A stretch of DNA of 64,000 bases, from the IMG/VR virus record IMGVR_UViG_651703075_000001, positions 1-64,000 of that record; one strand, 5' to 3'. Below the pieces are notes generated by a model. That model did no database searches. It saw only the letters and a program-made list of their open reading frames with translations, and was not told where the DNA came from. Made by a program: the position numbers and the translations under genes. This DNA is from a virus. Taxonomy: Duplodnaviria > Heunggongvirae > Uroviricota > Caudoviricetes. This document shows, in pieces, positions 1,700 to 63,772 of this stretch. Position 1 is the stretch's first letter, and the number at the start of each line of letters is the position of its first letter.

Positions 1700-2755
1700 A
1701 TGCGACCGATTCCCTCGCTTCAGAACAACTTCGAATACACCGACCTGACCGAGCCGATGATCCTGATCCCGAACGTGTGGGGTCTGACCCAACAGCTCGG
1801 CATCTTCGGTGTTGACCGCACCACCCAAGAGTCTGTGACTCTGGAAGAAATCACCAAGTCGTTCGGCCTGATGGAAGATATCCATCGTGGCGCTCGCCAC
1901 CAGGTTGGTCGTGACTATGATCGTCAAATGCGCACCTTCGCGGTTCCGCACTTCACCTACGACGATTACATCACCCCGCGTGACATCCAGGGCAAGCGTG
2001 CCTACGGCAAGCAAGAGCTGGAAACCCTGGACCAGGTTCGTATGCGCAAGCTGGAGCGTCTGCGTGGCACTCACGCCGCTACCATGGAGTTTGCTCGTAT
2101 GCACACCCTGGTTACCGGCAAGCCCTACACCCCCAACAACACCGTTGGTGGTGCTACCGGTTACGACTGGTACCAAGAGTTCGGTAAGACCCGTTTCGAA
2201 GTCAACTTCGAGCTGGACACCCCGACCACCAACATCCTGGAGAAGAGCGAGCTGGTTTACGCTCACATGCAGGACGAGGCCTACACTGGCGGCGTAGTTG
2301 GCGATGTTATCGCTATCTGCTCTCCGGAGTTCTTCAGCAAGCTGATCAGCCACCCGACCGTGGTTGAGGCGTACAAATACTACGCCAGCCAGCCGCAGAT
2401 TCTCCGTGAACGCCTGCGTGCCCGTGGCTTCGACGCCCGTTACCGTGAGTTCTACTTCGGCAACGTGCTGTACATCGAGTACCGTGGTGGCTTCCAAGGC
2501 CGTCCGGGTGGCGAGAAGCGCCGTTACGTTCCGGCTGGTGAAGCTGTCTTCATCCCCGGTAGCGGCACCGAAGACCTGTTCAAGACCTTCTTCGCTCCGG
2601 CGAGCAAGTTCGAACACGTCAACACCCCCGGCGAAGAAAGCTACGCGTTCGAGTACGTGGACCCGAAAGGTGAGTTCCTGGAGATTAACTCCGAGACCAA
2701 CTTCATCAACGTCCTGATGTACCCGCAACTGGTCGTGAAAGGCAAAGCGGCCTAA
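1700..2755 (+). CDS. major capsid protein
   Basis: 351 aa, RBS aaggaagga, position after scaffold, followed by strong terminator (highly expressed unit); size and order typical of XkdG-like capsid. Confidence 0.55.
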   Translation: MRPIPSLQNNFEYTDLTEPMILIPNVWGLTQQLGIFGVDRTTQESVTLEEITKSFGLMEDIHRGARHQVGRDYDRQMRTFAVPHFTYDDYITPRDIQGKRAYGKQELETLDQVRMRKLERLRGTHAATMEFARMHTLVTGKPYTPNNTVGGATGYDWYQEFGKTRFEVNFELDTPTTNILEKSELVYAHMQDEAYTGGVVGDVIAICSPEFFSKLISHPTVVEAYKYYASQPQILRERLRARGFDARYREFYFGNVLYIEYRGGFQGRPGGEKRRYVPAGEAVFIPGSGTEDLFKTFFAPASKFEHVNTPGEESYAFEYVDPKGEFLEINSETNFINVLMYPQLVVKGKAA

Positions 2756-2757
2756 GA

Positions 2758-2787
2758 AAACGGGGGCCTTCGGGCCCCCTTTTTTGG
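2758..2787 (+). terminator. rho-independent terminator (GGGGGCCTTCGGGCCCCC + T7)
   Basis: perfect GC hairpin with UUCG loop followed by TTTTTT. Confidence 0.75.
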
Positions 2788-2808
2788 TCCCGAGAAAAGG
2801 AGTAGGAT

Positions 2809-3294
2809 ATGCCCTACACAGGCGATCCGAAGAACAATGTGGTCGATCAGCTCCGCCTGATGGTGGGGGATATCTGGGACGACATTGAAATCTTGACGGA
2901 CGAAGATTACCAATATTTTATCGACATGTACAATGGCAATATCCGCAGGGCTTTCCTGGACGTTGTACGGTCAATCCTCTTCAAGCTGGCACGTTACGTC
3001 AGGGAACGGACTGGTGATATTGAGGTCTACGGAAGTGACTGGTGGAAGGCCTATAGGCAAACTCTCCAGGATATCTTGAAGGACCCGAACCTGACAACCG
3101 TGATTGCTCTGCCCTACGTTGGAGGTGTGTCAGCCAAAGACATGGCCATGAACAATGCCAACCCAGACAACGTGGCACGGAAGATTTTCATTGGATTCAA
3201 TCGTGATTTGCGGCTTTACGAGCAGCAGAACGTAGGGTACAACGACATGCCGAGAATCGGGAAGGCCCTAGATGCCCAGCCGAATCTCTGCTGA
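2809..3294 (+). CDS. hypothetical head-tail connector/neck protein
   Basis: 161 aa ORF with RBS aaaggag; position between capsid and sheath. Confidence 0.4.
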   Translation: MPYTGDPKNNVVDQLRLMVGDIWDDIEILTDEDYQYFIDMYNGNIRRAFLDVVRSILFKLARYVRERTGDIEVYGSDWWKAYRQTLQDILKDPNLTTVIALPYVGGVSAKDMAMNNANPDNVARKIFIGFNRDLRLYEQQNVGYNDMPRIGKALDAQPNLC

Positions 3295-3739
3295 CTTTCG
3301 GAAGCTAGACGCTCTGATTGCCCGGATGGAGGCCTTGGACGGTCTGACGCTGGAAGGAGGCTTCTTCCCTGAAGACCGGTACGGTCCAGAGAATGGTAAC
3401 CTCCCAGTCGCCCAGGTGGCAGCCTACAACGTTTTCGGCACGGAAACCAACCCGGAACGAGACTTCATGACTCCCAGCTTTAGTGACTGGGCCACGGTGA
3501 ACTACTACCGGAAAGCCATGAAGCAGGTGGTAGAGGCTACCATTCGAGATGGGCGGACCCAGAAGGGGCAGCTCAACAAGATGGGCCGAACCATGGTGGA
3601 GATTATCCAGGTCAACATTGACGACTTCCCAGGCCATAACAGCGCTCGCTGGGCCCAGGTGAAAGGCTTTGACGACCCCCTGACCCATACGGGCAAGATG
3701 CAGGATAGCGTCAAGTACAAGATCGTGAGGAGGAAGTGA
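3272..3739 (+). CDS. hypothetical head-tail joining protein
   Basis: 155 aa ORF overlapping upstream gene; neck module position. Confidence 0.4.
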   Translation: MPSRISADFRKLDALIARMEALDGLTLEGGFFPEDRYGPENGNLPVAQVAAYNVFGTETNPERDFMTPSFSDWATVNYYRKAMKQVVEATIRDGRTQKGQLNKMGRTMVEIIQVNIDDFPGHNSARWAQVKGFDDPLTHTGKMQDSVKYKIVRRK

Positions 3740-4110: not shown

Positions 4111-4730
4111 TGGCCCTGACCATGGACGAGCTGAGGGCGAAATACCCCGGCATAGAGGACATTTACACCCAGTTGGAAGATGCCCTCTACAACGTGGCTG
4201 AGGCTGCTTTGGGGGATTTCCCTCTGGTGCTAAGCTACTGTGATAACCAACAGACCCAGACGCCTGCACTGTACATCGAGCCGATGGACATCAAATCGGT
4301 ATTCACCGAGCAGGTAGCAGGCACTCTGGAGATTGACCCAACAGACCCAGAGAGGGCTGTGCAAGAGGTCACCAAGTGGTACACCCTTAAAGCCCGTTTT
4401 ACAGGCCTGGGGAGTCCACACAACCACGCCATGGCAGCGGCAGCAGTCCAGCATTTGGAATTCTTCCTCAGCACTGAGGAGGGTTACCAGGCTTTGGAAT
4501 CCAACGGGTTTTCAAAGAATGGGGCCAATCCAATTCGTCGGATCAGGGATCAACGTCCCAATGAGCTGTACCAGCATTTCCGGTACGATGTTCATTTGTC
4601 CTACGCCATAACACGGAAAGAAGAGGTGACCTGGATCGAAGCTTTGGAGCTGGACGCGGTTTACACCAACGCCGGACGAGAGCCTGACCACGTTATCAAG
4701 AACCATATCTCACTCAACGAGGAACCCTGA
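4110..4730 (+). CDS. hypothetical tail terminator/neck protein
   Basis: 206 aa from internal ATG overlapping upstream stop (tgATG); track ORF 4011 has implausible N-extension. Confidence 0.4.
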   Translation: MALTMDELRAKYPGIEDIYTQLEDALYNVAEAALGDFPLVLSYCDNQQTQTPALYIEPMDIKSVFTEQVAGTLEIDPTDPERAVQEVTKWYTLKARFTGLGSPHNHAMAAAAVQHLEFFLSTEEGYQALESNGFSKNGANPIRRIRDQRPNELYQHFRYDVHLSYAITRKEEVTWIEALELDAVYTNAGREPDHVIKNHISLNEEP

Positions 4731-4732
4731 AG

Positions 4733-6055
4733 ATGACCCGTCTTACCGACATCATCCAGATCACCATTGATCGGCAAACGCAGCCGGTAGCCACCACTGC
4801 GTTCAACGTGCCGATGTTCCTGGCTACCCACTCCAACTTCTCCGAGCGGGCGCGGGAATATGCATCGACGGAAGCTGTCATGGCAGACTTCCCGAACAAT
4901 AGCTCCGTAATGCAGGCAGCTCGTATGGCCTTCGCACAGAACCCGCGCCCCAACCGCCTGGTTGTTGGTCGCCGCAACGTGCCAGGCGCCACTGTCTCCA
5001 TTGTAGAGGTTGCACCGCAGACCACCTACACCATGACCCTGAACGGTATTCCGGTGAGCTACCTGTCGAAACCGGAACCTGTGGATGAAGATGACGATCC
5101 GGCAGACACGGCAGTAACCATCTGCGCAGGCCTGGTAGCAGCTTTCAACGTCAGCCCGGTCGTTGGCATCACTCTGACCGACAATACCGACGGTACCATC
5201 ACCGTTCGCAGCTCCAGCACCTCCTGGTCGCTGACTACCTCGGCAAACCTGTCGAAGTCGAACATGCCGTCCACCGAGGGCTGGGGTGCCGCTATCCTGG
5301 CAGTAAGCGCTGCGAACAGCAAGTGGTACGGTGCTACCATCGAATCTCACGTCCCGGCAGATGTCCTGGAAGTGGCTGCTACCATCGAGTCGATGAGTGC
5401 GAAGAAAATCTTCGGTACCTCTACCAGCTCCGTGGCTGTGAAGAACGCCACTGCTGGCAACATCCTGGAGACCCTGAACAAGGCTGGCTACCATCGCACC
5501 TTCCTGCTCTGGAATGGTCGAGCTGACCAGGACTTCCCGGAACTGGGCTGGATGTCGAGCCAACTGCAAGAGCAGCCGGGCAGCAACACCTGGAGCTTCA
5601 AGGGCATCGCTGGAGCTACCTACGATGAGCTGGACGACCAAGAGTCGGCAAACATCCACGACCACAAAGGTAACACCTATGAGTTCGTCGGGGATGCCAA
5701 CAGCACCACGTTCGGTAGCATGGTGTCTGGCGAGTGGATCGATACCATGGTAGGCATTGACTGGTTCGAAGCCCGCCTCCGGGAGCGCCTGTGGTTCCGT
5801 CAGCGGAACAGCAAGAAAATCCCGTACACCAAGCAGGGTACCACCATCCTCGAAACGGATGTTCGAGCACAGCTCCAAGAGGGCATTCGAGTTCAACTGT
5901 TCACCGACACCCCGGCTCCCCGGGTCCGTGTACGGGACGCAAACAGCATGTCTCCGAATGATCGGGCTCGCCGGTTCTATGACGGTATCGAGTTCGAAGC
6001 TCAGCTCGCTGGTGCCATCCACATCATCGGTATCCGTGGCGTAGTCACGGCATAA
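4733..6055 (+). CDS. tail sheath-like protein (DUF3383-type)
   Basis: 440 aa, RBS, immediately followed by three tube-like paralogs; order sheath-tube-chaperone-tape measure. Confidence 0.5.
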   Translation: MTRLTDIIQITIDRQTQPVATTAFNVPMFLATHSNFSERAREYASTEAVMADFPNNSSVMQAARMAFAQNPRPNRLVVGRRNVPGATVSIVEVAPQTTYTMTLNGIPVSYLSKPEPVDEDDDPADTAVTICAGLVAAFNVSPVVGITLTDNTDGTITVRSSSTSWSLTTSANLSKSNMPSTEGWGAAILAVSAANSKWYGATIESHVPADVLEVAATIESMSAKKIFGTSTSSVAVKNATAGNILETLNKAGYHRTFLLWNGRADQDFPELGWMSSQLQEQPGSNTWSFKGIAGATYDELDDQESANIHDHKGNTYEFVGDANSTTFGSMVSGEWIDTMVGIDWFEARLRERLWFRQRNSKKIPYTKQGTTILETDVRAQLQEGIRVQLFTDTPAPRVRVRDANSMSPNDRARRFYDGIEFEAQLAGAIHIIGIRGVVTA

Positions 6056-45756: not shown

Positions 45757-46077
45757 ATGCAAGACCTGTATAGCCAACACCGTGCCGCTGTCAAGAAACT
45801 CCTCCAAGAGGGGCGAAAGCTGAAGGCGACCTACGTCATGACCCTCTACATGGAGGGTTCCAGCCCGAAGGATGAAGACCCTATGGTAGCCCACCTCACG
45901 TTGGGTAAAACCTATGATGTTATCACAGACGGCCTGTACAAGGATGGTTCCTTCTACGTGGTGGACGATGAGGGCTGGGATCACCTGTTTACCCTGGATA
46001 TCCTGCCCGAAGAAGATGGATGCCCACGGTTCGATGTGTTCGATCACTTTGTGTTTAATGTGGAGGGTCCTCTCTGA
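45757..46077 (+). CDS. hypothetical protein
   Basis: 106 aa, RBS ttaggagga. Confidence 0.5.
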   Translation: MQDLYSQHRAAVKKLLQEGRKLKATYVMTLYMEGSSPKDEDPMVAHLTLGKTYDVITDGLYKDGSFYVVDDEGWDHLFTLDILPEEDGCPRFDVFDHFVFNVEGPL

Positions 46078-46244
46078 TGTACGAGATTCAGTTGATCAAC
46101 GACTGCAACGGTTGCACTGCTACTCTACAGGTTGCCGATGAAGAGGCAGCTCTGGATTTGATGGAGGAGATGGAGTATGCCTGGACCCGCTATGGCAGTG
46201 ATTGGATGCCGTCTTGGTTAGGGTTTAATCCGAAACTCTCTTGA
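46077..46244 (+). CDS. hypothetical small acidic protein
   Basis: 55 aa, TGATG overlap, stop overlaps the -35 of next promoter. Confidence 0.35.
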   Translation: MYEIQLINDCNGCTATLQVADEEAALDLMEEMEYAWTRYGSDWMPSWLGFNPKLS

Positions 46245-46269
46245 CAACACCGGAGGGCTCTTATACACT
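46241..46269 (+). promoter_or_regulatory. sigma70-like promoter TTGACA-N17-TACACT
   Basis: consensus -35, 17-nt spacer, upstream of 46297 gene. Confidence 0.5.
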
Positions 46270-46296
46270 GAGCCCTCAACCACCTTTGGAGGATTT

Positions 46297-46794
46297 ATGA
46301 ACACTGCTCAAACCATCGCAGACATCCTGATTCACCTCGCTGACCGTCTGTACACTCAGAAGGGTCGATGCCTCATCGACGGGCGCTGCAACTATGTAGA
46401 TGGCCAGGGAAATCACTGTGCTGTTGGGCACCTCCTAAGCTCCCAGTCGTGGGAGTTCGCTTCCAAGTGCCACGGCGGCGTGCCATCCCTGGAGAACGAC
46501 TGGGCGCGGCGTAAAGATGGAAGTGTGGAGACTCTCTATGACGAGAAGTTCTTCATCGCAGACATCGGTGTTCGCCGCCGTCTGTTGGACTCTTTGCAGT
46601 TCTACCATGATGAGCCGTCTATGTACTGGACAGTGGCTAAAAGCCCGTCATTCTCAAAGGTAAGCCTCCTGTTGTCTATGGTGGATTTCCTGAACACTCA
46701 AGGCCTGGACTTTGTTGAGCGCCCCCAATCTAGTGTTAAGGGTTTCTGGTCGGAAGCTAAAGGAATTCTTCGCAATCGGGGGTACCACGTATGA
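46297..46794 (+). CDS. hypothetical protein
   Basis: 165 aa, RBS tttggagga. Confidence 0.5.
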   Translation: MNTAQTIADILIHLADRLYTQKGRCLIDGRCNYVDGQGNHCAVGHLLSSQSWEFASKCHGGVPSLENDWARRKDGSVETLYDEKFFIADIGVRRRLLDSLQFYHDEPSMYWTVAKSPSFSKVSLLLSMVDFLNTQGLDFVERPQSSVKGFWSEAKGILRNRGYHV

Positions 46795-47270
46795 ACAAGG
46801 CTCTCCTTCTGAAAGACCAGTTGGCAGCAGCCCTACGATGTGAAGACCATACCCTGCAAGGTGTTGTCAGTTCTATCGTGTTCGGCCCTACCCAGGGGCT
46901 TGATCATAACGGTATTGCGATCCGTGGGCCGGGGCTTCTAAGTGATCACCGGGAACTGGTACAGCGAGCCGACAGGGTATGGATGAACATCGCCTACCGT
47001 CGAGAAGGTTTGCTAGTCAACATGAATGGCTTTACCCGGTCTGTGGTAGATGTGTTTATTCTCAAAGACAGGTATCACGGGCTGACAGGGTTGAGGTCCG
47101 TGGGTGTGGGTGAGGGATGGGCAAATGCCCTGGCCATCGACTGTGCCCTGCTGAAGAAGCAGTTCGAAGTTATTGTCGAAATCCCTTACCAGTACGAGGG
47201 GTGGGCAACCGACCTGGTACGGGCAGGTGAGATTCCTGAAGGTGTGACCATCATGTCCTCGGGGGTGTAG
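46791..47270 (+). CDS. hypothetical protein
   Basis: 159 aa, ATGA overlap. Confidence 0.5.
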   Translation: MNKALLLKDQLAAALRCEDHTLQGVVSSIVFGPTQGLDHNGIAIRGPGLLSDHRELVQRADRVWMNIAYRREGLLVNMNGFTRSVVDVFILKDRYHGLTGLRSVGVGEGWANALAIDCALLKKQFEVIVEIPYQYEGWATDLVRAGEIPEGVTIMSSGV

Positions 47271-47345
47271 ATATTTGAGGGGCTGGGGATATTTGCTCTA
47301 GATATTTGGGTGGCCCCCTATTTCGAGCTAGATATTTGAAGGGGC
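47268..47345 (+). repeat. direct repeats CTAGATATTTG(A/G)(A/G)GGG x3 (plus partial GATATTTG copy), ~30-nt period
   Basis: copies at ~47268, 47298, 47328 in intergenic DNA. Confidence 0.7.
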
Positions 47346-47440
47346 CTCCCAGCCTCGCTATCACATTTTAAGCCGGCCCCTGACTCACGGCCTAGGTTAG
47401 GGGAGAAATCGTCTCCTAGGCCCATCAGAGGAGCTTACAA

Positions 47441-47653
47441 GTGCATATCAACATCACGCTTACAGTCGGTCCTGAGATTCGTTGTAAGAAGTGCGACTCC
47501 CCCACCCCTGCCCGGGATATCGTAGAAGGCCTCTGCCCTTCCTGCCGGACACTCAAGGCCTGGGAGGCGCTTGGGCAGGCTGCTCAAGAGCTGTGGGCTT
47601 CCACTTTCAAGAGCGTCAAGATCGATTCCGTTCGGCTTGAGCAAGGTACCTGA
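47441..47653 (+). CDS. small Zn-ribbon protein (candidate DNA-binding regulator)
   Basis: 70 aa from GTG with RBS gaggag; CKKC...CPSC; flanked on both sides by direct-repeat arrays. Confidence 0.4.
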   Translation: MHINITLTVGPEIRCKKCDSPTPARDIVEGLCPSCRTLKAWEALGQAAQELWASTFKSVKIDSVRLEQGT

Positions 47654-47730
47654 CAGATTTTCACAGCCGGGCGTAAGGTACTCGACAGATTTTCACCGAG
47701 CGCCCAAGGTACTCGACAGATTTTTACAGA
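47644..47730 (+). repeat. direct repeats AAGGTACYYGACAGATTTT(T)YACMG x3, 31-nt period
   Basis: three 24-nt copies starting at ~47644, 47675, 47706. Confidence 0.75.
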
Positions 47731-47790
47731 GACAGGTATCAAAAGAACTGTCAAGTTTCCCTCCCCAGGCGGCCCGACCCCTCGGCCTCT

Positions 47791-47830
47791 TGTAGCACGT
47801 CAACTCCCCGCTGTAGCACGTCACTTCCCC
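47791..47830 (+). repeat. direct repeat TGTAGCACGTCA(A/C)(C/T)TCCCC x2
   Basis: two 19-nt copies 21 nt apart in the same non-coding region. Confidence 0.65.
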
Positions 47831-48098
47831 GGTAAGTAGCTCCCTATCTATCCCTCCCTCACCGAAACTACCTTTCACATGCAATCTCCATGCCAACCTT
47901 GAAAAGCGCGCAGGGGCGGTGTTTGTCTCCGGCGCCCGGCCCCTCCGGCCTGCTTTCCCGCATGCCTCCAGAATGCCAGGATGAGCCTGGAGTGTCAAGC
48001 CTTGTGCCAGGATTTTTCATCGCCGACCTGGCATGTTCCTTGCTACGCTTGCGCGTTCCTCTACCTGGCGTTGCCAGAGCAATTTCTTAAAAAGGGGG

Positions 48099-48126
48099 TT
48101 GACTTCTAACCGTGCCACCGTAGAAT
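48099..48126 (+). promoter_or_regulatory. early promoter TTGACT-N16-TAGAATGACC
   Basis: member of the TAGAATGGCC promoter family with conserved CAAGCAAGGCAAAC leader. Confidence 0.55.
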
Positions 48127-48165
48127 GACCCTCAAGCAAGGCAAACAACCTGTAGGAAGGTAACC

Positions 48166-48435
48166 ATGCAAAAAGCTCTCTGCAATCAACGTGACCTGTA
48201 CGCTGCCTATAACCGTGGTGAGTATGACCGCGTGGCCGTAGACCTGAATCGGTACTTCCCCATTGAGCGGGATAATCAGTGGGAAGATGGAGATGCGAAC
48301 CTGCGTCGTCGCACCTATCTGGTGAAGCACTCGAAGGGCGTGGCCAGGTGGCACACTCTCTATCGTAATGGTCAGGTTCACGGCGTCGGCGTTATCTTCG
48401 ACGTAAAGCCGGACGAACCCTTCCGAACTGCCTGA
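48166..48435 (+). CDS. hypothetical protein
   Basis: 89 aa, RBS ggaaggtaacc. Confidence 0.45.
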   Translation: MQKALCNQRDLYAAYNRGEYDRVAVDLNRYFPIERDNQWEDGDANLRRRTYLVKHSKGVARWHTLYRNGQVHGVGVIFDVKPDEPFRTA

Positions 48436-58482: not shown

Positions 58483-58696
58483 CGCCCTGGGGCATTCTCC
58501 ATTCATCCCCTATGCCTCAGTGCCAGGACCTATGTTTGAATTCGAGTGGTTCGACGTAGGGAATGCCGTCATAGAGCTAGAGCCAGGATGGCTAGTAGGG
58601 GTAGGGTTTGGAGTGGATAGCTTGTTTGTACTCACCTGGGTTGAAGGGGAACCATTCGCCGAGCGGCGACCCTGGACCCCTAACCTCAGGTCATAG
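58472..58696 (+). CDS. hypothetical protein
   Basis: 74 aa, ATGA overlap. Confidence 0.4.
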   Translation: MTGNALGHSPFIPYASVPGPMFEFEWFDVGNAVIELEPGWLVGVGFGVDSLFVLTWVEGEPFAERRPWTPNLRS

Positions 58697-59976
58697 ATTC
58701 TCTGCCAGGTGGTCACAAGTTTCTATTCGGTCGCCATAATAATGACCCTGGGGAGGGTCCTACGGACCGTCACGATAACAGGGGAATTATGGCCATGTTA
58801 ACAGGGCCTATAGGCTTCGTAGAAGCCAGTTTAGCTTAGGCAGTACCCTAGTATAGGAAAGGCCTTGAAAAGGCCGTATGCGCGCCCCCAGGGGGCCTAT
58901 CGGGGAGGGAGTGGGCAAGTGCCCCCTCCCCGTGTCTAAGCCTTATCAACTGGACTCTTCGAGTCCATTCCAACAGGCTTCTACGAAGCCATATAATCAC
59001 CAGTCATAATACCAATCATGCGCAGAGCATCCGGGTAGGATGATCAAGCCATTGGTCTCTCCTCTCTGTCAAGAATTCTGTAACAATCACTAGGTCACGT
59101 CGTGACCCATTGTGTAACAGTCGGCAGACTGTCATTCGGGCAGGGGCATTTGCCCCCTTCCTGCCCTCCTAAACTAGCTGGCTTCGACGAAGCCTTCCCA
59201 TGCCACCAACCCAATTATGTAACAGCCTGGCCATGGTCATGGCCCATTGTGTAACGGCATTGCATGCCAGGATCACCAGACAGCCCCAGCCAGTCCAATT
59301 GTGTAACCATTCCCCATCCCAGCAGCAGAATATCCCCAGCCAGGAAGCCCATGACCCTCCCCATTGCATCCTAGGTGCTCAGCCCCTGGAATACGTCGAT
59401 TGTGTAACCCATGACCACCCATGCCCTAGTAGGCCTCTTCGAGGCGAGCTAATGCCGGCGTCTCTCTACCCTCACGGGAAGAGTTCCCCCTTTATTATGG
59501 CGACCGAATAGAGAATGCCCGGTTCATGCGGCCTGTAGGCCATTACAATGGCCAGCCCGGGTAAGGATTGCATTACACAATAGGCTTACCCTCACCCCTG
59601 AATTGACAGGCCTCGAAGAGGCTAGCCAGGCTCAGACAGACAGCTTGAGTTACACAATTCCCCCTCACATATTGCCCCACTCCCCATGCCACACCCCTGA
59701 CATTCAACCCCACGCCCCAGCCTCAGCAGATACATTTGCTTCGACGAAGCCTGGATATTTCCAGATCATGACGGCGCCTCATGGCCACCCTCGGGTCTTG
59801 TTAAATACCCCGGCTGCCTATCTGGAATTTCAGAATCATGATGCCCCTCCCCAGTCACACCCCCAGGCCCGTTCCCCAGGATTCCCCCAGATATATTTCC
59901 CAGGCTGGTGCCCAGGAAGGGTGCCCCCATGTACCCCTGAAATTTTGGCGGGGGTGGGTTTCTGAATTGAAAAATG
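58697..59976. repeat. 1.3 kb non-coding hub with dispersed ATTGTGTAAC repeats (both orientations) and GGCTTCG-N-CGAAGCC / GGTCACG-N-CGTGACC palindromes
   Basis: no ORF with RBS on either strand; at least 5 forward and 2 reverse copies of (A)ATTGTGTAAC; several 7-bp-arm palindromes. Confidence 0.6.
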
Positions 59977-60006
59977 TTGACAGGCCCCTGCCGGGGCTTC
60001 ACAATG
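59977..60006 (+). promoter_or_regulatory. promoter TTGACA-N17-CACAATGGCC driving the paralog array
   Basis: family-type extended -10 (AATGGCC); track ORF 59974 ATG lies inside it. Confidence 0.55.
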
Positions 60007-60039
60007 GCCCCATATTCGCTGCCAGAGAGGAGGCACCCC

Positions 60040-60471
60040 ATGGTTTTGTTTATGTATGATGTTGACCCCGGCTCCCTGCCTGTAGGCTGCTACGGGGCTT
60101 TCCTGAAGACTCCCCACGCCATCCGTGTTGCCCTGTGTGAGCTGGCTAGCTGGGCTAAGGAAGGATGTCCCCAGCATCCCGTGTTTGAAAGACAGAAACG
60201 AATCTGCAACAACGTGGGGAAGTACCTTCTTACCCATGGCAACTACACTCACCTGGCGATGGTGAACTGGAAGCTGGAATACCTTATGTCCTGGGCTGGG
60301 TTTTCCAGAGGGCACCCCCTTCCCTTCGAGCTAGGGGGTAAGCGGGATGAGAAGGGAGAGTATTACGAGAACCCCAACAGGTTGCATTTCCTGGACATGG
60401 TGGTTATGATGTCCAAGATGTATTACAACGATGAGATGAAGCGTTTGGAAGGAGGGAAGAATGATGTGTGA
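60040..60471 (+). CDS. paralog-family protein 1 (W..G.P / R.C.N / AG / YPFE / Y.NP.R..F family)
   Basis: 143 aa from ATG with RBS gagaggagg; motifs SWAKEGCP, RICNN, LPFELGG, YYENPNRLHFL. Confidence 0.5.
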   Translation: MVLFMYDVDPGSLPVGCYGAFLKTPHAIRVALCELASWAKEGCPQHPVFERQKRICNNVGKYLLTHGNYTHLAMVNWKLEYLMSWAGFSRGHPLPFELGGKRDEKGEYYENPNRLHFLDMVVMMSKMYYNDEMKRLEGGKNDV

Positions 60472-60802
60472 GAATGTGCGTTTTGTACTGGCTGTGAAGC
60501 TCCTCCACCCAAAGGTGAAGGCAGGGTTGGCCAGGATGGTCAAGTGGTACAAGGAAGGTATGCCTGGTGACCGCACCTTTTCCAAGTACACCCGGCTATG
60601 CTCCAACATCTTTCTTGAGACAGGTGTTGCGTATGCCCTGGTTGATCTGTTCACAGCTTACGGGCTGTCCTTCACCTCCTCGTACCCCTTCGAGGGTGGT
60701 CAGCGGATAGAGGTCCCTGAGGACATCTACAAGAACCCTCTCCGGGTCAAGTTCCTGCTGGATGTTGGTGCTGTGTTGAAGGAGGAAGGATATGATTGCT
60801 GA
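60461..60802 (+). CDS. paralog-family protein 2
   Basis: 113 aa; WYKEGMP, RLCSN, YPFEGG, IYKNPLRVKFL. Confidence 0.5.
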   Translation: MMCENVRFVLAVKLLHPKVKAGLARMVKWYKEGMPGDRTFSKYTRLCSNIFLETGVAYALVDLFTAYGLSFTSSYPFEGGQRIEVPEDIYKNPLRVKFLLDVGAVLKEEGYDC

Positions 60803-61843: not shown

Positions 61844-62742
61844 CCCTAGACCTAAACAGAGCACCTGCTTCGGCTACCCACTACTCCGTTCGGACGGACT
61901 CTCCCTTTACAACCTTCTGGAGAAAGGAAGGTGATCTGTTTACCCGTATATGGGTAGCTGATGCAGAGGGTTTACGTCTCCCAGAAGGGCGTACTCCCAC
62001 CCCTTACGAGAAAGATGTTGCGAGTGTTTATGCCAAGCCCTTACCATCCCCTCCTCAGGGTGTAGTGGATAATCCTGTCGTGGCTTCATACCGGGAAGCG
62101 TTCAGCCCCGCCCCTCAGGTTGAGTCGGGAGAAACCCGGGCACGTGGGAAAGTGGACTATAGCAGTCTGGACAGCTACATATGGAGCCAGGCCCCCCTTC
62201 AGGCCAACTTCTTCTCCCTGGGGCTGAACGGGGAGTTGAACTGCTGGCTGCGCGTTGAAGAAGACAAGATCGTAACGGTTTGGACGGAGCAGGGTACGGT
62301 GTATAACTATCGATCATCCGACCGACAACCTTCGGTACCTGGTCCGAGATTCCCCCGCCCCCAGAAGAAGGAAGAGGCCTCCCCTCAAGAGTGGGACGGT
62401 GAAGGACTCCCTCCTGTCGGCTGCACCGTCCAACTGGTGGACATCTCTTCTCCTGTGAGCCCGCCTTTCGATGAGTGGTTGCTTGGGGACTACCTGGAGG
62501 TGATCGCCCACAAGGAGGTTTGTGGAACCGTTCGTCCTGTCGTGTGGAATGACAGGAAGCAGACGGGATCGTCCATCCTTCCAAGGCTGATTAGCCCTGT
62601 GTCCCAAGAGACTCTGGCTGCCGAGAAGGAACGCCAGCAAGGTATCCAGGAAATGGTCTCTTTGGTGAGCAGCATGGACCTTGCCCGTGCCCTGGAAGTG
62701 CTGTATGATGCAGGCTATCGTAAACAGGAGGACACCGAATGA
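61840..62742 (+). CDS. hypothetical protein (Pro-rich, not family member) embedded in paralog array
   Basis: 300 aa from ATG overlapping upstream stop with RBS ggagga; lacks YPFE/NP-R motifs. Confidence 0.45.
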   Translation: MTLDLNRAPASATHYSVRTDSPFTTFWRKEGDLFTRIWVADAEGLRLPEGRTPTPYEKDVASVYAKPLPSPPQGVVDNPVVASYREAFSPAPQVESGETRARGKVDYSSLDSYIWSQAPLQANFFSLGLNGELNCWLRVEEDKIVTVWTEQGTVYNYRSSDRQPSVPGPRFPRPQKKEEASPQEWDGEGLPPVGCTVQLVDISSPVSPPFDEWLLGDYLEVIAHKEVCGTVRPVVWNDRKQTGSSILPRLISPVSQETLAAEKERQQGIQEMVSLVSSMDLARALEVLYDAGYRKQEDTE

Positions 62743-63092
62743 ACACCCATGAACGACTGCTACGTGCTGTGCAAGCTCTGCCTCGGGACCTGATCCCGTC
62801 CCTGCATGACCTGGTGGCCTGGTACCACTCAGGCTGCCCGGATGGGTCCCCGTTTAACACCTCCCGTAGGATATGCGGGAACGTATACCGACACCTCATC
62901 TGCAAAAGAGGGGTGAGTCCTGAAAGGGCCTGTGATCTGGAGGACTGCCTGTACTCTCTTTACGAGGCCTTCCTGGATGTTGACCTCAGCGACGAGGGGT
63001 TCCCATTCGACGACGAAGCGACAATCTACAAGAACCACTACGACAACCCGCTCCGCATGGCCTTCCTCAAGTGTCTGTCGGAGGTGCTGTGA
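62739..63092 (+). CDS. paralog-family protein 6
   Basis: 117 aa; WYHSGCP, RICGN, FPFDDE, YDNPLRMAFL. Confidence 0.5.
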   Translation: MNTHERLLRAVQALPRDLIPSLHDLVAWYHSGCPDGSPFNTSRRICGNVYRHLICKRGVSPERACDLEDCLYSLYEAFLDVDLSDEGFPFDDEATIYKNHYDNPLRMAFLKCLSEVL

Positions 63093-63772
63093 TGCGACTC
63101 AAGAGGATTGAACATATAAACTTCGAGAAGTTCTCCTGGCAGACTCAGGTTGCCTTGAAGGAGCTGGCTCGTTGGGTGTTTAAGGACATGGGTCCGTGGA
63201 CTGAGGGTAAGACCCATCCAGCCTTCTACCGGGGGTATCGTGTCTGCACCAACCTCCGCTTGTGGGAGTTGCATTACGGGTGGGGGGATAAGCATGGTCG
63301 GACGATCCAGACAGAGTTATCCGAAGAGTTCGTTCGTGTTGGCCTGGACAGGGACCTCCCCTTCGAAGGCCGTCTCTCGGATGACGGGATATTCGTTCTG
63401 GACGAAGATGCTGTCGAAGAACTCTACGACAACCCCCTTCGTCAGCGGTTCCTCCGACTAGCCCTGGAGAAGCTTTCAGCGCCCAAGGTGGAGGTCAGTG
63501 AGATGGTGGAAGACGCGCTCACAGCCGTGGCCCGCTGGGCTATTTTGAAGGAGTCCTTCTCCTGCTTCGAACCTCGGTTCCGAATCTGCTGGAACGTGGA
63601 GAACTACCTTACCTGGTTAGGGAAGAGCGAGGTAGAGGTCGCCAAAGCTTATCAGGAGTTGTCCAAAGTCTTCGGCGTCATGTACCCCTTTGAAAGTGAG
63701 GAAGGGTTTGACACAGAGGAAGAGATTTGGAAGAATGATCGCCGACTCTCTTTCCTGGCTCAATTTATCTGA
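63092..63772 (+). CDS. paralog-family protein 7 (tandem double domain)
   Basis: 226 aa from ATG overlapping upstream stop; domain 1 RVCTN...LPFEGR...LYDNPLRQRFL; domain 2 RICWN...YPFESEEG...IWKNDRRLSFL. Confidence 0.5.
   Translation: MRLKRIEHINFEKFSWQTQVALKELARWVFKDMGPWTEGKTHPAFYRGYRVCTNLRLWELHYGWGDKHGRTIQTELSEEFVRVGLDRDLPFEGRLSDDGIFVLDEDAVEELYDNPLRQRFLRLALEKLSAPKVEVSEMVEDALTAVARWAILKESFSCFEPRFRICWNVENYLTWLGKSEVEVAKAYQELSKVFGVMYPFESEEGFDTEEEIWKNDRRLSFLAQFI

What the first reader, a model, noticed from the sequence alone, without database searches (positions are those of the whole stretch)
58697..59976. 1.3 kb non-coding hub with ATTGTGTAAC repeats and 7-bp-arm palindromes
This is the largest ORF-free stretch in the window. 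It carries at least five direct and two inverted copies of (A)ATTGTGTAAC at ~59108, 59246, 59297, 59399 (forward) and 59572, 59648 (reverse). It also has a family of palindromes with a 1-nt centre: GGCTTCG-A-CGAAGCC at ~59183 and ~59743, relatives GGCTTCGTAGAAGCC at ~58813 and GGCTTCTACGAAGCC at ~58975, and GGTCACG-T-CGTGACC at ~59128. A near-palindromic GGCCATTACAATGGCC sits at ~59540. This density of short repeats is what one expects at a replication origin, a packaging (pac/cos or terminal-repeat) region, or an early regulatory hub bound by a host or phage factor.
Basis: seen in the sequence. Interest (0 to 1): 0.6.

Follow-up and report, generated by a model that had tools for sequence, protein, structure and literature searches.

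The report
Phage KPP10 genome ends (terminal repeat)
This gene-free stretch is where the two physical ends of the phage KPP10 chromosome meet in the database record: a 756-bp repeat present at both ends plus its flanks, already known for this phage group, though the conserved short motifs packed inside it have not been described.

Summary
The window is Pseudomonas phage KPP10 (AB472900.2, same coordinates). The hub is the collapsed direct terminal repeat (DTR) of the genome plus both flanks. Window 59047-59802 (756 bp) aligns end-to-end with the annotated terminal repeat of phage Ab03, and the same boundaries recur in PS24, G1, Ab06 and CHA_P1. Published read pile-ups give a DTR of 771/756 bp in KPP10-like phages. 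PhageTerm and capsid Hi-C place T7-like DTR termini in the homologous stretch of PAK_P3, where RNA-seq found negligible expression of the ORF once annotated there. The KPP10 record is therefore a permuted, single-copy representation.

New detail: all 8 ATTNTGTAAC copies lie inside the DTR and are more conserved than the rest of it. An 8-member GGCYTC-N3-GARGCC hairpin family keeps its arms while its centres drift. A 21-nt perfect inverted repeat bridges the left boundary. The 350 nt before the repeat fold unusually well as a single strand.

I read these as protein-recognition and processing elements for end cutting or repeat duplication, with some hairpins acting as terminators. That part is inference. 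An iteron-type origin is not supported. The kind is already known; interest is modest.

The parts
58697..59046 (.). Last unique, non-coding 350 nt of the right genome end, immediately before the right copy of the terminal repeat. Dense in hairpins.
   Evidence: As single-stranded DNA it folds at -73 kcal/mol against -45.5 +/- 4.4 for shuffles (z = -6.2, 0 of 100 shuffles as good). It lies after the stop of ORF105. By homology it is the end of the early block gp74-gp112 of PAK_P3.
59047..59802 (.). Direct terminal repeat (DTR), 756 bp, present once in this permuted record. Left physical end = 59047. Right physical end = 59802, or 59800 by the CHA_P1 record.
   Evidence: It aligns end-to-end with the Ab03 repeat_region 1-771 / 85476-86246 and with position 1 of PS24. 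The G1, Ab06, Ab17, Ab04 and Ab11 records end at the base matching 59802. CHA_P1 carries it twice in tandem. Published evidence: DTR of 771/756 bp from read peaks; PhageTerm T7-like DTR 'around 63 kb' in PAK_P3, which corresponds to this window stretch.
59075..59408 (+). Six forward ATTNTGTAAC copies at 59075, 59109, 59214, 59246, 59298 and 59399.
   Evidence: Spacings are 34, 105, 32, 52 and 101 nt. Two copies directly follow a hairpin: GGTCACGTCGTGACC-C-motif and GGCCATGGTCATGGCC-C-motif (family D4).
59572..59658 (-). Two reverse ATTGTGTAA(C/T) copies at 59572-59581 and 59649-59658.
   Evidence: Across 12 genomes only 3 of 80 motif positions vary, against 101 of 676 in the rest of the DTR (Fisher p = 0.003).
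58813..59751 (.). GGCYTC-N3-GARGCC hairpin/palindrome family: 58813-58827, 58976-58990, 59180-59194, 59433-59445, 59610-59622 and 59737-59751, with looser members at 58861-58875 and 58951-58967.
   Evidence: For 17 palindromes, arms vary at 10 of 206 positions and centres at 15 of 43 (p = 3e-7). One compensatory double change is seen: GCCTC..GAGGC to GCTTC..GAAGC in Ab03. Each DTR boundary lies 51-56 nt 3' of a family member: 58990 to 59047, and 59751 to 59802.
58722..58742 (+). Left arm of a 21-nt perfect inverted repeat (TCTATTCGGTCGCCATAATAA), outside the DTR.
   Evidence: I2. It is 100% conserved in the relatives checked by blastn.
59492..59512 (-). Right arm of the same 21-nt inverted repeat, inside the DTR and 749 nt from the left arm.
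59093..59244 (.). Other conserved-arm hairpins in the left half of the DTR: 59093-59107, 59117-59132, 59138-59166 and 59229-59244.
   Evidence: Substitutions fall in the centres, for example CAGTC[GG/AT/TT/CG/AG]CAGACTG.
59530..59553 (.). Overlapping palindromes GGCCTGTAGGCC and GGCCATTACAATGGCC. They sit near the centre of a larger imperfect dyad: 59399-59461 against 59594-59658.
   Evidence: I1, I16; invariant in 12 genomes.
59752..59841 (+). Two copies of TGGAWATTTCMAGAWTCATGA (59752-59771 and 59822-59841) that bracket the right DTR boundary.
   Evidence: D14. Ab03, VL12 and PAK_P5 carry an extra copy as an insertion at ~59819.
59803..60039 (+). First unique sequence of the left genome end. 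It holds a C-rich tract, then a sigma-70-like promoter (TTGACA-17-CACAAT, 59977-60005), a GAGAGGAGG ribosome site and the ORF107 start at 60040.
   Evidence: 10 of 12 consensus matches; promoter invariant in 12 genomes; GC skew down to -0.6.
59273..59422 (-). Annotated ORF106. Not a real gene.
   Evidence: It is frameshifted in PAK_P3, NCVTCBPA170, LSL4 and VL12. The ORF once annotated in this stretch of PAK_P3, gp113, showed negligible expression and was deleted from that annotation.

Best explanation
The hub is the junction of the two physical ends of the linear KPP10 chromosome, written as if circular. It has three parts: the last 350 non-coding nt of the right end (58697-59046), one collapsed copy of the 756-bp direct terminal repeat (59047-59802), and the 237-nt leader of the left end with the promoter of ORF107 (59803-60039).

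Shown (in close relatives): virions carry the repeat at both ends, and the ends are fixed and non-permuted.

Inferred for the life cycle: after entry the repeats let the genome circularise or form concatemers by recombination. At packaging, a T7-like terminase cuts at the two fixed sites, 59046/59047 and about 59802/59803. The repeat is duplicated so that each head receives a copy at both ends.

Inferred for the internal elements: the eight ATTNTGTAAC copies and the GGCYTC-N3-GARGCC hairpins are recognition or processing elements for this end chemistry. They could serve terminase or an end-binding protein, or act as single-strand hairpins during repeat duplication. The hairpins in the left flank probably also stop early transcription at the genome end.
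For: Identity of the window: 100% match to AB472900.2 at the same coordinates.

Boundaries: the Ab03 terminal repeat_region, position 1 of PS24, the ends of the G1 and Ab06 records, the CHA_P1 tandem copy and the RP14 repeat all map to 59047 and 59800-59802.

Literature: a putative DTR of 771 bp (756 in Ab06) from read peaks, with nucleotide one differing from the KPP10 record (PMC4482731). [quoted passage not shown] PhageTerm gives T7-like DTR termini around 63 kb, and capsid Hi-C shows a linear, non-permuted genome with later circularisation (PMC13510664). PAK_P3 62421-63676 equals window 58697-59976. Sister genera also have DTRs: 1190 bp by run-off sequencing, 1165 bp and 628 bp.

Selection on the elements: motif positions vary at 3/80 against 101/676 (p = 0.003). 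Palindrome arms vary at 10/206 against centres at 15/43 (p = 3e-7). One compensatory change was seen. The motif is confined to the DTR genome-wide. The 21-nt inverted repeat is perfectly conserved. The left flank folds at z = -6.2. There are 6 terminator-like sites against 1.6 expected.

Cut-site contexts resemble those of Pakpunavirus Adele. Each falls in the top 2% of all positions scored.

TerL is a Terminase_6N/6C protein.
Against: No KPP10 virion reads or end-sequencing data were available, so the KPP10 ends are placed by homology (93-98% identity) rather than measured. The right boundary differs by 2 nt between records (59800 vs 59802).

Nothing here shows which protein, if any, binds ATTNTGTAAC or the hairpins. 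The Pakpunavirus DTR has no ATTGTGTAAC array, so the motif is genus-specific and its link to packaging is only positional. The DTR itself does not fold better than shuffles as a single strand (z = -0.7).
Confidence: 0.85

Rival explanations
1. Replication origin: the ATTNTGTAAC copies are iterons for a phage or host initiator, and the palindromes help unwinding. The origin could coincide with the terminal repeat.
For: There are eight conserved short repeats in both orientations, confined to one non-coding, untranscribed stretch. A large imperfect dyad is centred near 59528 (I1 and I16). Strand composition is strongly asymmetric.
Against: No AT-rich unwinding element exists: the minimum G+C in 100-nt windows is 0.47. 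No DnaA box at <=1 mismatch lies in 58697-60039. The core is 10 nt, not 17-22, and the spacings of 32-105 nt are irregular. No initiator-like gene is adjacent: ORF104, 105, 107 and 108 have no Pfam family. The primase/helicase and polymerase genes lie 26-30 kb away. The published Hi-C coverage skew indicates a single start site, but the text read does not place it.
Confidence: 0.12
2. Transcription insulator: the hairpins are bidirectional terminators. They end the early transcripts at the right genome end and keep RNA polymerase from running across the joined ends in circles or concatemers.
For: In PAK_P3 the early block gp74-gp112 runs up to this point and the repeat itself is silent. Stems are conserved while loops are free. 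There are 6 terminator-like sites against 1.6 expected. Palindromic hairpins work on either strand.
Against: Most hairpins lack a T-run. The same family sits deep inside a stretch that is not transcribed at all, where terminators would have nothing to stop. This reading does not explain the ATTNTGTAAC array or the 21-nt inverted repeat. It is compatible with the best explanation rather than exclusive of it.
Confidence: 0.35
3. Architectural anchor: the motif array is bound by a nucleoid-associated-like protein, possibly packaged in the virion. That protein holds the ends and organises the early-gene loop right after injection.
For: [quoted passage not shown] The preprint version proposed a virion-borne DNA-binding protein, Gp160. 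Multiple conserved sites in a silent region suit such an anchor.
Against: No binding data exist. The loop may simply be a transcription-induced domain that ends at a chromosome end. The figures were not available, so the anchor coordinates are unverified.
Confidence: 0.15
4. The stretch encodes small proteins (ORF106 and others) or a non-coding RNA.
For: GenBank records annotate 1-6 short CDSs here. ORFs of up to 120 aa exist.
Against: No frame is conserved: ORF106 is broken in 4 of 12 genomes, and the 103-aa and 120-aa ORFs in 6 or more of 12. Different records annotate different ORFs. PAK_P3 gp113 has negligible expression. No Rfam family or tRNA was found in the window.
Confidence: 0.03

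Closest known systems
Direct terminal repeat of KPP10-like phages (Nankokuvirus: Ab03/04/06/11/17, PAK_P3, CHA_P1)
   Same: It is the same sequence at 93-98% identity, with the same boundaries and length (756 bp here and in Ab06, 771 in Ab03, 754 in CHA_P1). It is non-coding and untranscribed.
   Different: The KPP10 record is permuted, holds one copy and does not annotate the repeat. The internal motif and hairpin architecture described here is not mentioned in the papers read.
Phage T7 concatemer junction. From memory (Dunn & Studier 1983; Chung, Nardone & Hinkle 1990): a 160-bp terminal repeat, flanking arrays of short repeats, pac elements, and a hairpin intermediate formed left of the junction.
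   Same: Short, exact, non-permuted terminal repeat, and PhageTerm calls the PAK_P3 termini 'T7-like'. Short repeat arrays are associated with the repeat. A strongly hairpin-prone segment lies immediately left of the junction.
   Different: The repeat is about five times longer. The arrays lie inside the repeat, not beside it. The phage is a myovirus with a Terminase_6-type TerL and no phage RNA polymerase. No sequence similarity was found. The T7 details are recalled, not checked here.
Pakpunavirus terminal repeat (PaP1 1190 bp by run-off sequencing; Adele 1165 bp by PhageTerm)
   Same: Related phage group with the same end type. It has a comparable palindrome family, GATAGC-N3-GCTATC, with members outside and inside the repeat. 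Cut-site contexts are similar...GATG(A)T(C/T)A|AGC... and ...GGGT..TG.TT|.
   Different: No nucleotide homology (one search found only Nankokuvirus). No ATTGTGTAAC array. That repeat contains a gene annotated in RefSeq and other Pakpunavirus records as an HNH endonuclease, whereas this one is gene-free.
Terminase recognition arrays at packaging sites (lambda cosB R-sites, P1 pac hexamers, SPP1 pacL/pacR). From memory.
   Same: Several copies of a short motif, in both orientations, close to the cut site.
   Different: Those belong to cos or headful systems. Here the ends are exact repeats, the candidate small terminase is unidentified, and binding is untested.
Iteron-type origins (lambda ori, theta plasmids)
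   Same: Clustered short repeats plus dyad symmetry in a non-coding stretch.
   Different: There is no AT-rich element, no DnaA boxes, no regular spacing, a short core and no adjacent initiator gene.

Membership tests
Short exact direct terminal repeat (T7-like DTR) genome ends | The same sequence is present at both physical ends of virion DNA. | tested here: met
   In relatives: Ab03 1-771 equals 85476-86246 and both align to window 59047-59802. The CHA_P1 tandem copies are identical. For KPP10 itself this rests on homology only.
Short exact direct terminal repeat (T7-like DTR) genome ends | Fixed, non-permuted ends, seen as read-start pile-ups, PhageTerm calls or run-off sequencing. | not testable with these tools
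   No reads are held. The literature reports read peaks for the Ab phages, and PhageTerm plus capsid Hi-C for PAK_P3.
Short exact direct terminal repeat (T7-like DTR) genome ends | Independent records break or duplicate at the same two positions. | tested here: met
   Left boundary 59047 is found in Ab03, PS24, CHA_P1 and RP14. Right boundary is 59802 in Ab03, G1, Ab06, Ab17, Ab04 and Ab11, and 59800 in CHA_P1.
Short exact direct terminal repeat (T7-like DTR) genome ends | Large terminase falls in a clade of DTR-packaging phages. | not tested
   Only the Pfam domains were determined (Terminase_6N/6C). No phylogeny was made.
Iteron-type replication origin | Three or more direct repeats of about 17-22 bp at regular spacing. 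| tested here: not met
   The core is 10 nt. Flanks are not shared beyond two copies. Spacings are 34, 105, 32, 52 and 101 nt.
Iteron-type replication origin | Adjacent AT-rich unwinding element and/or DnaA boxes. | tested here: not met
   Minimum G+C is 0.47 per 100 nt. No TTATCCACA at <=1 mismatch lies in the hub.
Iteron-type replication origin | Replication starts here (marker frequency, 2D gels). | not testable with these tools
   the published coverage skew is described, but its position is not given in the text.
Intrinsic terminator cluster | G+C-rich hairpin followed by a T-run, at mapped transcript 3' ends. | tested here: inconclusive
   There are 6 consensus sites against 1.6 expected, but most hairpins lack a T-run.
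cos (cohesive-end) or headful pac site | Single-stranded cohesive ends, or circular permutation. | not testable with these tools
   The literature argues against both: DTR ends and 'absence of circular permutation'.
Known RNA families | Match to an Rfam model at its gathering score. | tested here: not met
   0 matches in the whole window and 0 tRNAs.

The most novel reading that the evidence does not exclude
The silent, gene-free terminal repeat acts as more than a redundancy device. Its eight ATTNTGTAAC sites and conserved-arm hairpins would be a dedicated binding platform for a phage, possibly virion-borne, end-binding protein. That protein would pair or protect the two ends, anchor the early-gene loop seen by Hi-C at 3 min, and later mark the concatemer junction for cutting. 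The hairpin-rich 350 nt on the left and the 21-nt inverted repeat would prime duplication of the repeat.
Probability: 0.2. Interest if true: 0.55.

Novelty: already known. Interest (0 to 1): 0.3.

Why it matters
The practical value is for annotation. The KPP10 reference record (also RefSeq NC_015272) is permuted, lacks the second repeat copy and carries a spurious ORF106. The true ends are at 59047 and about 59802. Nankokuviruses are phage-therapy candidates and PAK_P3 is a model for infection biology. Knowing exactly which conserved elements sit at the ends gives concrete targets for studying how myoviruses with short exact repeats cut and duplicate their ends, which has been worked out mainly in T7. 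It also gives targets for testing what anchors the early chromosome loop. None of this changes the known picture of DTR phages.

Tried and rejected
(1) Collection scans for ATTGTGTAAC-N25-55-ATTGTGTAAC in viral, metagenome and genome contigs. They returned only Ab03 plus unrelated tandem repeats or CRISPR-like arrays and an assembly duplicate in P. mandelii. No distant relatives carrying the array were found.

(2) tblastn with ORF107 to reach other genera through the first gene after the repeat. It hit only Nankokuvirus. The one divergent hit, Epa18, is an assembly that lacks the whole end region.

(3) The same motif in the Pakpunavirus repeat: absent.

(4) Supplementary TSS/TTS tables of the PAK_P3 ONT-cappable-seq study: not held.

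(5) Literature search for the motif string: only unrelated primer hits.

(6) A link between the hub and the other gene-free gap at 70.3-70.8 kb. That gap carries one ATTGTGTAAG between convergent terminators and is 100% identical in PAK_P3, so conservation says nothing.

(7) Coding and RNA readings: rejected.

(8) Long-range pairing of the 58813 and 58976 palindromes. Ab03 flips the centre of one only, which favours local hairpins or half-sites.

(9) Similarity between the two boundary contexts beyond the shared palindrome: not significant (8 of 500 shuffles score as high).

Full report
IDENTITY AND CONTEXT

The window is Pseudomonas phage KPP10, AB472900.2 / NC_015272.2, with window coordinates equal to record coordinates (100% match; the first 64,000 bases are identical). 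KPP10 is the type of the genus Nankokuvirus. Forty records in the phage collection carry the stretch at 93-100% identity, and all are Nankokuvirus. The finding lies between ORF105 (stop at 58696) and ORF107 (start at 60040). The only annotated feature inside is ORF106 on the minus strand. By annotation this is the largest gene-free gap in the 88-kb genome.

ATTGTGTAAC occurs five times exactly and three more times with one mismatch between 59075 and 59658. Six copies are forward and two are reverse. The window as a whole has nine hits at this stringency, against 2.4 expected. In the complete genome all exact copies are here.

One other palindrome, GGTCACGTCGTGACC, is at 59093, not 59128.

Relaxed to GGCYTC-N3-GARGCC, the family has six members at one mismatch or less (0.7 expected) and two looser ones. 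Perfect palindromes are five times denser here than in the window overall, and sliding-window counts at that level occur only in windows overlapping this stretch.

None of the open frames in the stretch is conserved. ORF106 is frameshifted in 4 of 12 relatives. The 103-aa and 120-aa frames are broken in most.

WHAT IT IS

Several related records begin or end inside the stretch, always at the same two places.

- Ab03 annotates a repeat_region at 1-771 and again at 85476-86246. Both copies align to window 59047-59802, and PS24 starts at the base matching 59047.
- The G1, Ab04, Ab06, Ab11 and Ab17 records end at the base matching 59802.
- CHA_P1 carries the segment twice head-to-tail, with a note giving 61954-62707 and 62708-63461. 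The two copies are identical, the left boundary is the same, and the right boundary is 2 nt shorter.
- The assembler-detected repeat in RP14 starts at the same base.

The literature explains this.

- Essoh et al. 2015 found read peaks that define a putative direct terminal repeat of 771 bp (756 in Ab06) in five KPP10-like phages. They noted that nucleotide one differs from the KPP10 record.
- Chevallereau et al. [quoted passage not shown]
- The 2026 Science Advances Hi-C study ran PhageTerm and obtained T7-like DTR termini 'around 63 kb'. It showed a linear, non-permuted genome in capsids and circularisation after entry. PAK_P3 62421-63676 is the homologue of window 58697-59976.
- Sister groups have the same end type. 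PaP1 has 1190 bp by run-off sequencing, Adele 1165 bp and PseuGes_254 628 bp.

So 59047-59802 is the single collapsed copy of a 756-bp DTR. The stretch 58697-59046 is the last unique DNA of the right end. The stretch 59803-60039 is the first unique DNA of the left end.

ANATOMY BEYOND WHAT IS PUBLISHED

I aligned 12 distinct genomes over 58650-60060.

(i) All eight motif copies lie inside the repeat. Only 3 of their 80 positions vary, against 101 of 676 for the rest of the repeat (p = 0.003).

(ii) For 17 hairpin-type palindromes the arms vary at 10 of 206 positions and the centres at 15 of 43 (p = 3e-7). Centres are often fully replaced, for example GAA, TTC, TAC, GCA and TTT at 59615-59617. 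Ab03 shows one compensatory double change, GCCTC..GAGGC to GCTTC..GAAGC. The symmetry itself is therefore under selection. This fits either stem-loops or dimer half-sites.

(iii) A 21-nt perfect inverted repeat has one arm 305 nt outside the left boundary (58722-58742) and one inside the repeat (59492-59512). It is intact in all relatives checked.

(iv) As single-stranded DNA the left flank folds far better than shuffles (z = -6.2). The repeat (z = -0.7) and the right flank (z = +1.4) do not.

(v) Each boundary lies 51-56 nt downstream of a GCTTC-N3-GAAGCC member. A 20-nt unit, TGGAWATTTCMAGAWTCATGA, brackets the right boundary.

(vi) The plus strand is C-rich from 59100 to 59950.

(vii) The right flank ends in a fully conserved TTGACA-17-CACAAT promoter and a strong ribosome site for ORF107.

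(viii) The Pakpunavirus repeat has no ATTGTGTAAC. It does have an analogous GATAGC-N3-GCTATC palindrome family. Its cut-site contexts resemble those of KPP10, each falling in the top 2% of all positions scored.

HOW IT MOST LIKELY WORKS

Shown, in relatives: both virion ends carry the repeat, the ends are fixed, the repeat is transcriptionally silent, and the genome circularises after entry.

Inferred from established knowledge of exact-DTR phages (T7 as the worked example, from memory): recombination or annealing between repeats yields circles and concatemers. Terminase then cuts at two fixed sites, and the repeat is copied so that each genome leaves with two.

Inferred from position and conservation only: the motifs and hairpins are the recognition and processing elements for these steps. 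The hairpin-prone left flank plays the part of the T7 'hairpin end' region.

The early block, gp74-gp112 in PAK_P3, is transcribed toward this end. The left-flank hairpins therefore probably also terminate early transcripts. Terminator-like sites number 6 against 1.6 expected.

RIVALS

An iteron origin fails the tests I could run. There is no AT-rich element and no DnaA boxes. The core is short and the spacing irregular. No initiator gene is adjacent. It is not excluded, because replication starts were not mapped in text I could read.

A pure terminator or insulator role explains the flank hairpins but not the motif array.

An architectural-anchor role is suggested by the Hi-C loop, whose one side is the termini, but it has no binding evidence.

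Coding and RNA readings are rejected.

VERDICT

The feature is an already known kind and is already published for this genus, although the KPP10 record neither annotates it nor starts at the true end.

The added value here has three parts. First, exact KPP10 coordinates for the repeat. Second, removal of ORF106 as a gene. Third, a conserved internal architecture whose function is open: the motif array, the hairpin family, the bridging inverted repeat and the structured left flank. Interest is modest at 0.3.

Noticed in passing
L010 (PAP-JP) 1008-1135; window 58977-59104: PAP-JP carries a 128-bp tandem duplication that spans the left terminal-repeat boundary, taking in a palindrome, the cut site and the first motif copy. 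It could be a real variant or an assembly artefact at the repeat edge.
   Followed up: partly
L015 (CHA_P1) 1826-3333: The CHA_P1 GenBank record holds the terminal repeat twice head-to-tail in the middle of the record (754 bp x 2, identical). In effect it depicts a concatemer junction with a duplicated repeat.
   Followed up: yes
L002 (RP14) 4510-5095: After the repeat, the RP14 record continues with a run of N and then a fragment annotated as similar to the host intramembrane protease RasP. This is most likely a scaffolding artefact.
   Followed up: partly
L041/L042 (Epa18 record ends): The Epa18 'complete genome' (83,260 bp) lacks the whole end region, from the ORF101 homologue to the ORF109 homologue including the repeat. 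The assembly is broken at the repeat.
   Followed up: partly
KPP10 70681 (L019 25681), outside the window: The only other near-perfect motif copy in non-coding DNA, ATTGTGTAAG, sits between the two convergent terminators where the plus-strand and minus-strand gene blocks meet. The region is 100% identical in PAK_P3, so conservation says nothing.
   Followed up: partly
window 60040-60802 and beyond: ORF107 and ORF108 are paralogues (both phrog_2176), and tblastn with ORF107 finds 4-5 places per genome. A small paralogous gene family of unknown function starts right after the terminal repeat.
   Followed up: no
KPP10 84008-84826 and 82012-82368 (L019), outside the window: ORF155 (272 aa) matches the N-terminal ATPase part of large terminases and lies upstream of the real TerL, ORF157. 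ORF152 carries DUF5681. No small terminase is annotated.
   Followed up: no
window 59100-59950: There is strong strand asymmetry: GC skew falls to -0.6 and the plus strand is C-rich. G-runs therefore lie on the minus strand between the end of the repeat and the ORF107 promoter. The cause is unknown.
   Followed up: no
window ~59819 (alignment): Ab03, VL12 and PAK_P5 have a 37-49-nt insertion just outside the right repeat boundary. It adds another copy of the CTGGAATTT(C/G)A(G/A)A unit, so this boundary-flanking unit varies in copy number.
   Followed up: partly
window 46000-48200: This is the only stretch of the window with negative AT skew before 55 kb. It holds a lone minus-strand ORF78 and short gaps. 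By homology with PAK_P3 RNA-seq, the early block (gp74-gp112) would begin about here and run to the terminal repeat.
   Followed up: no
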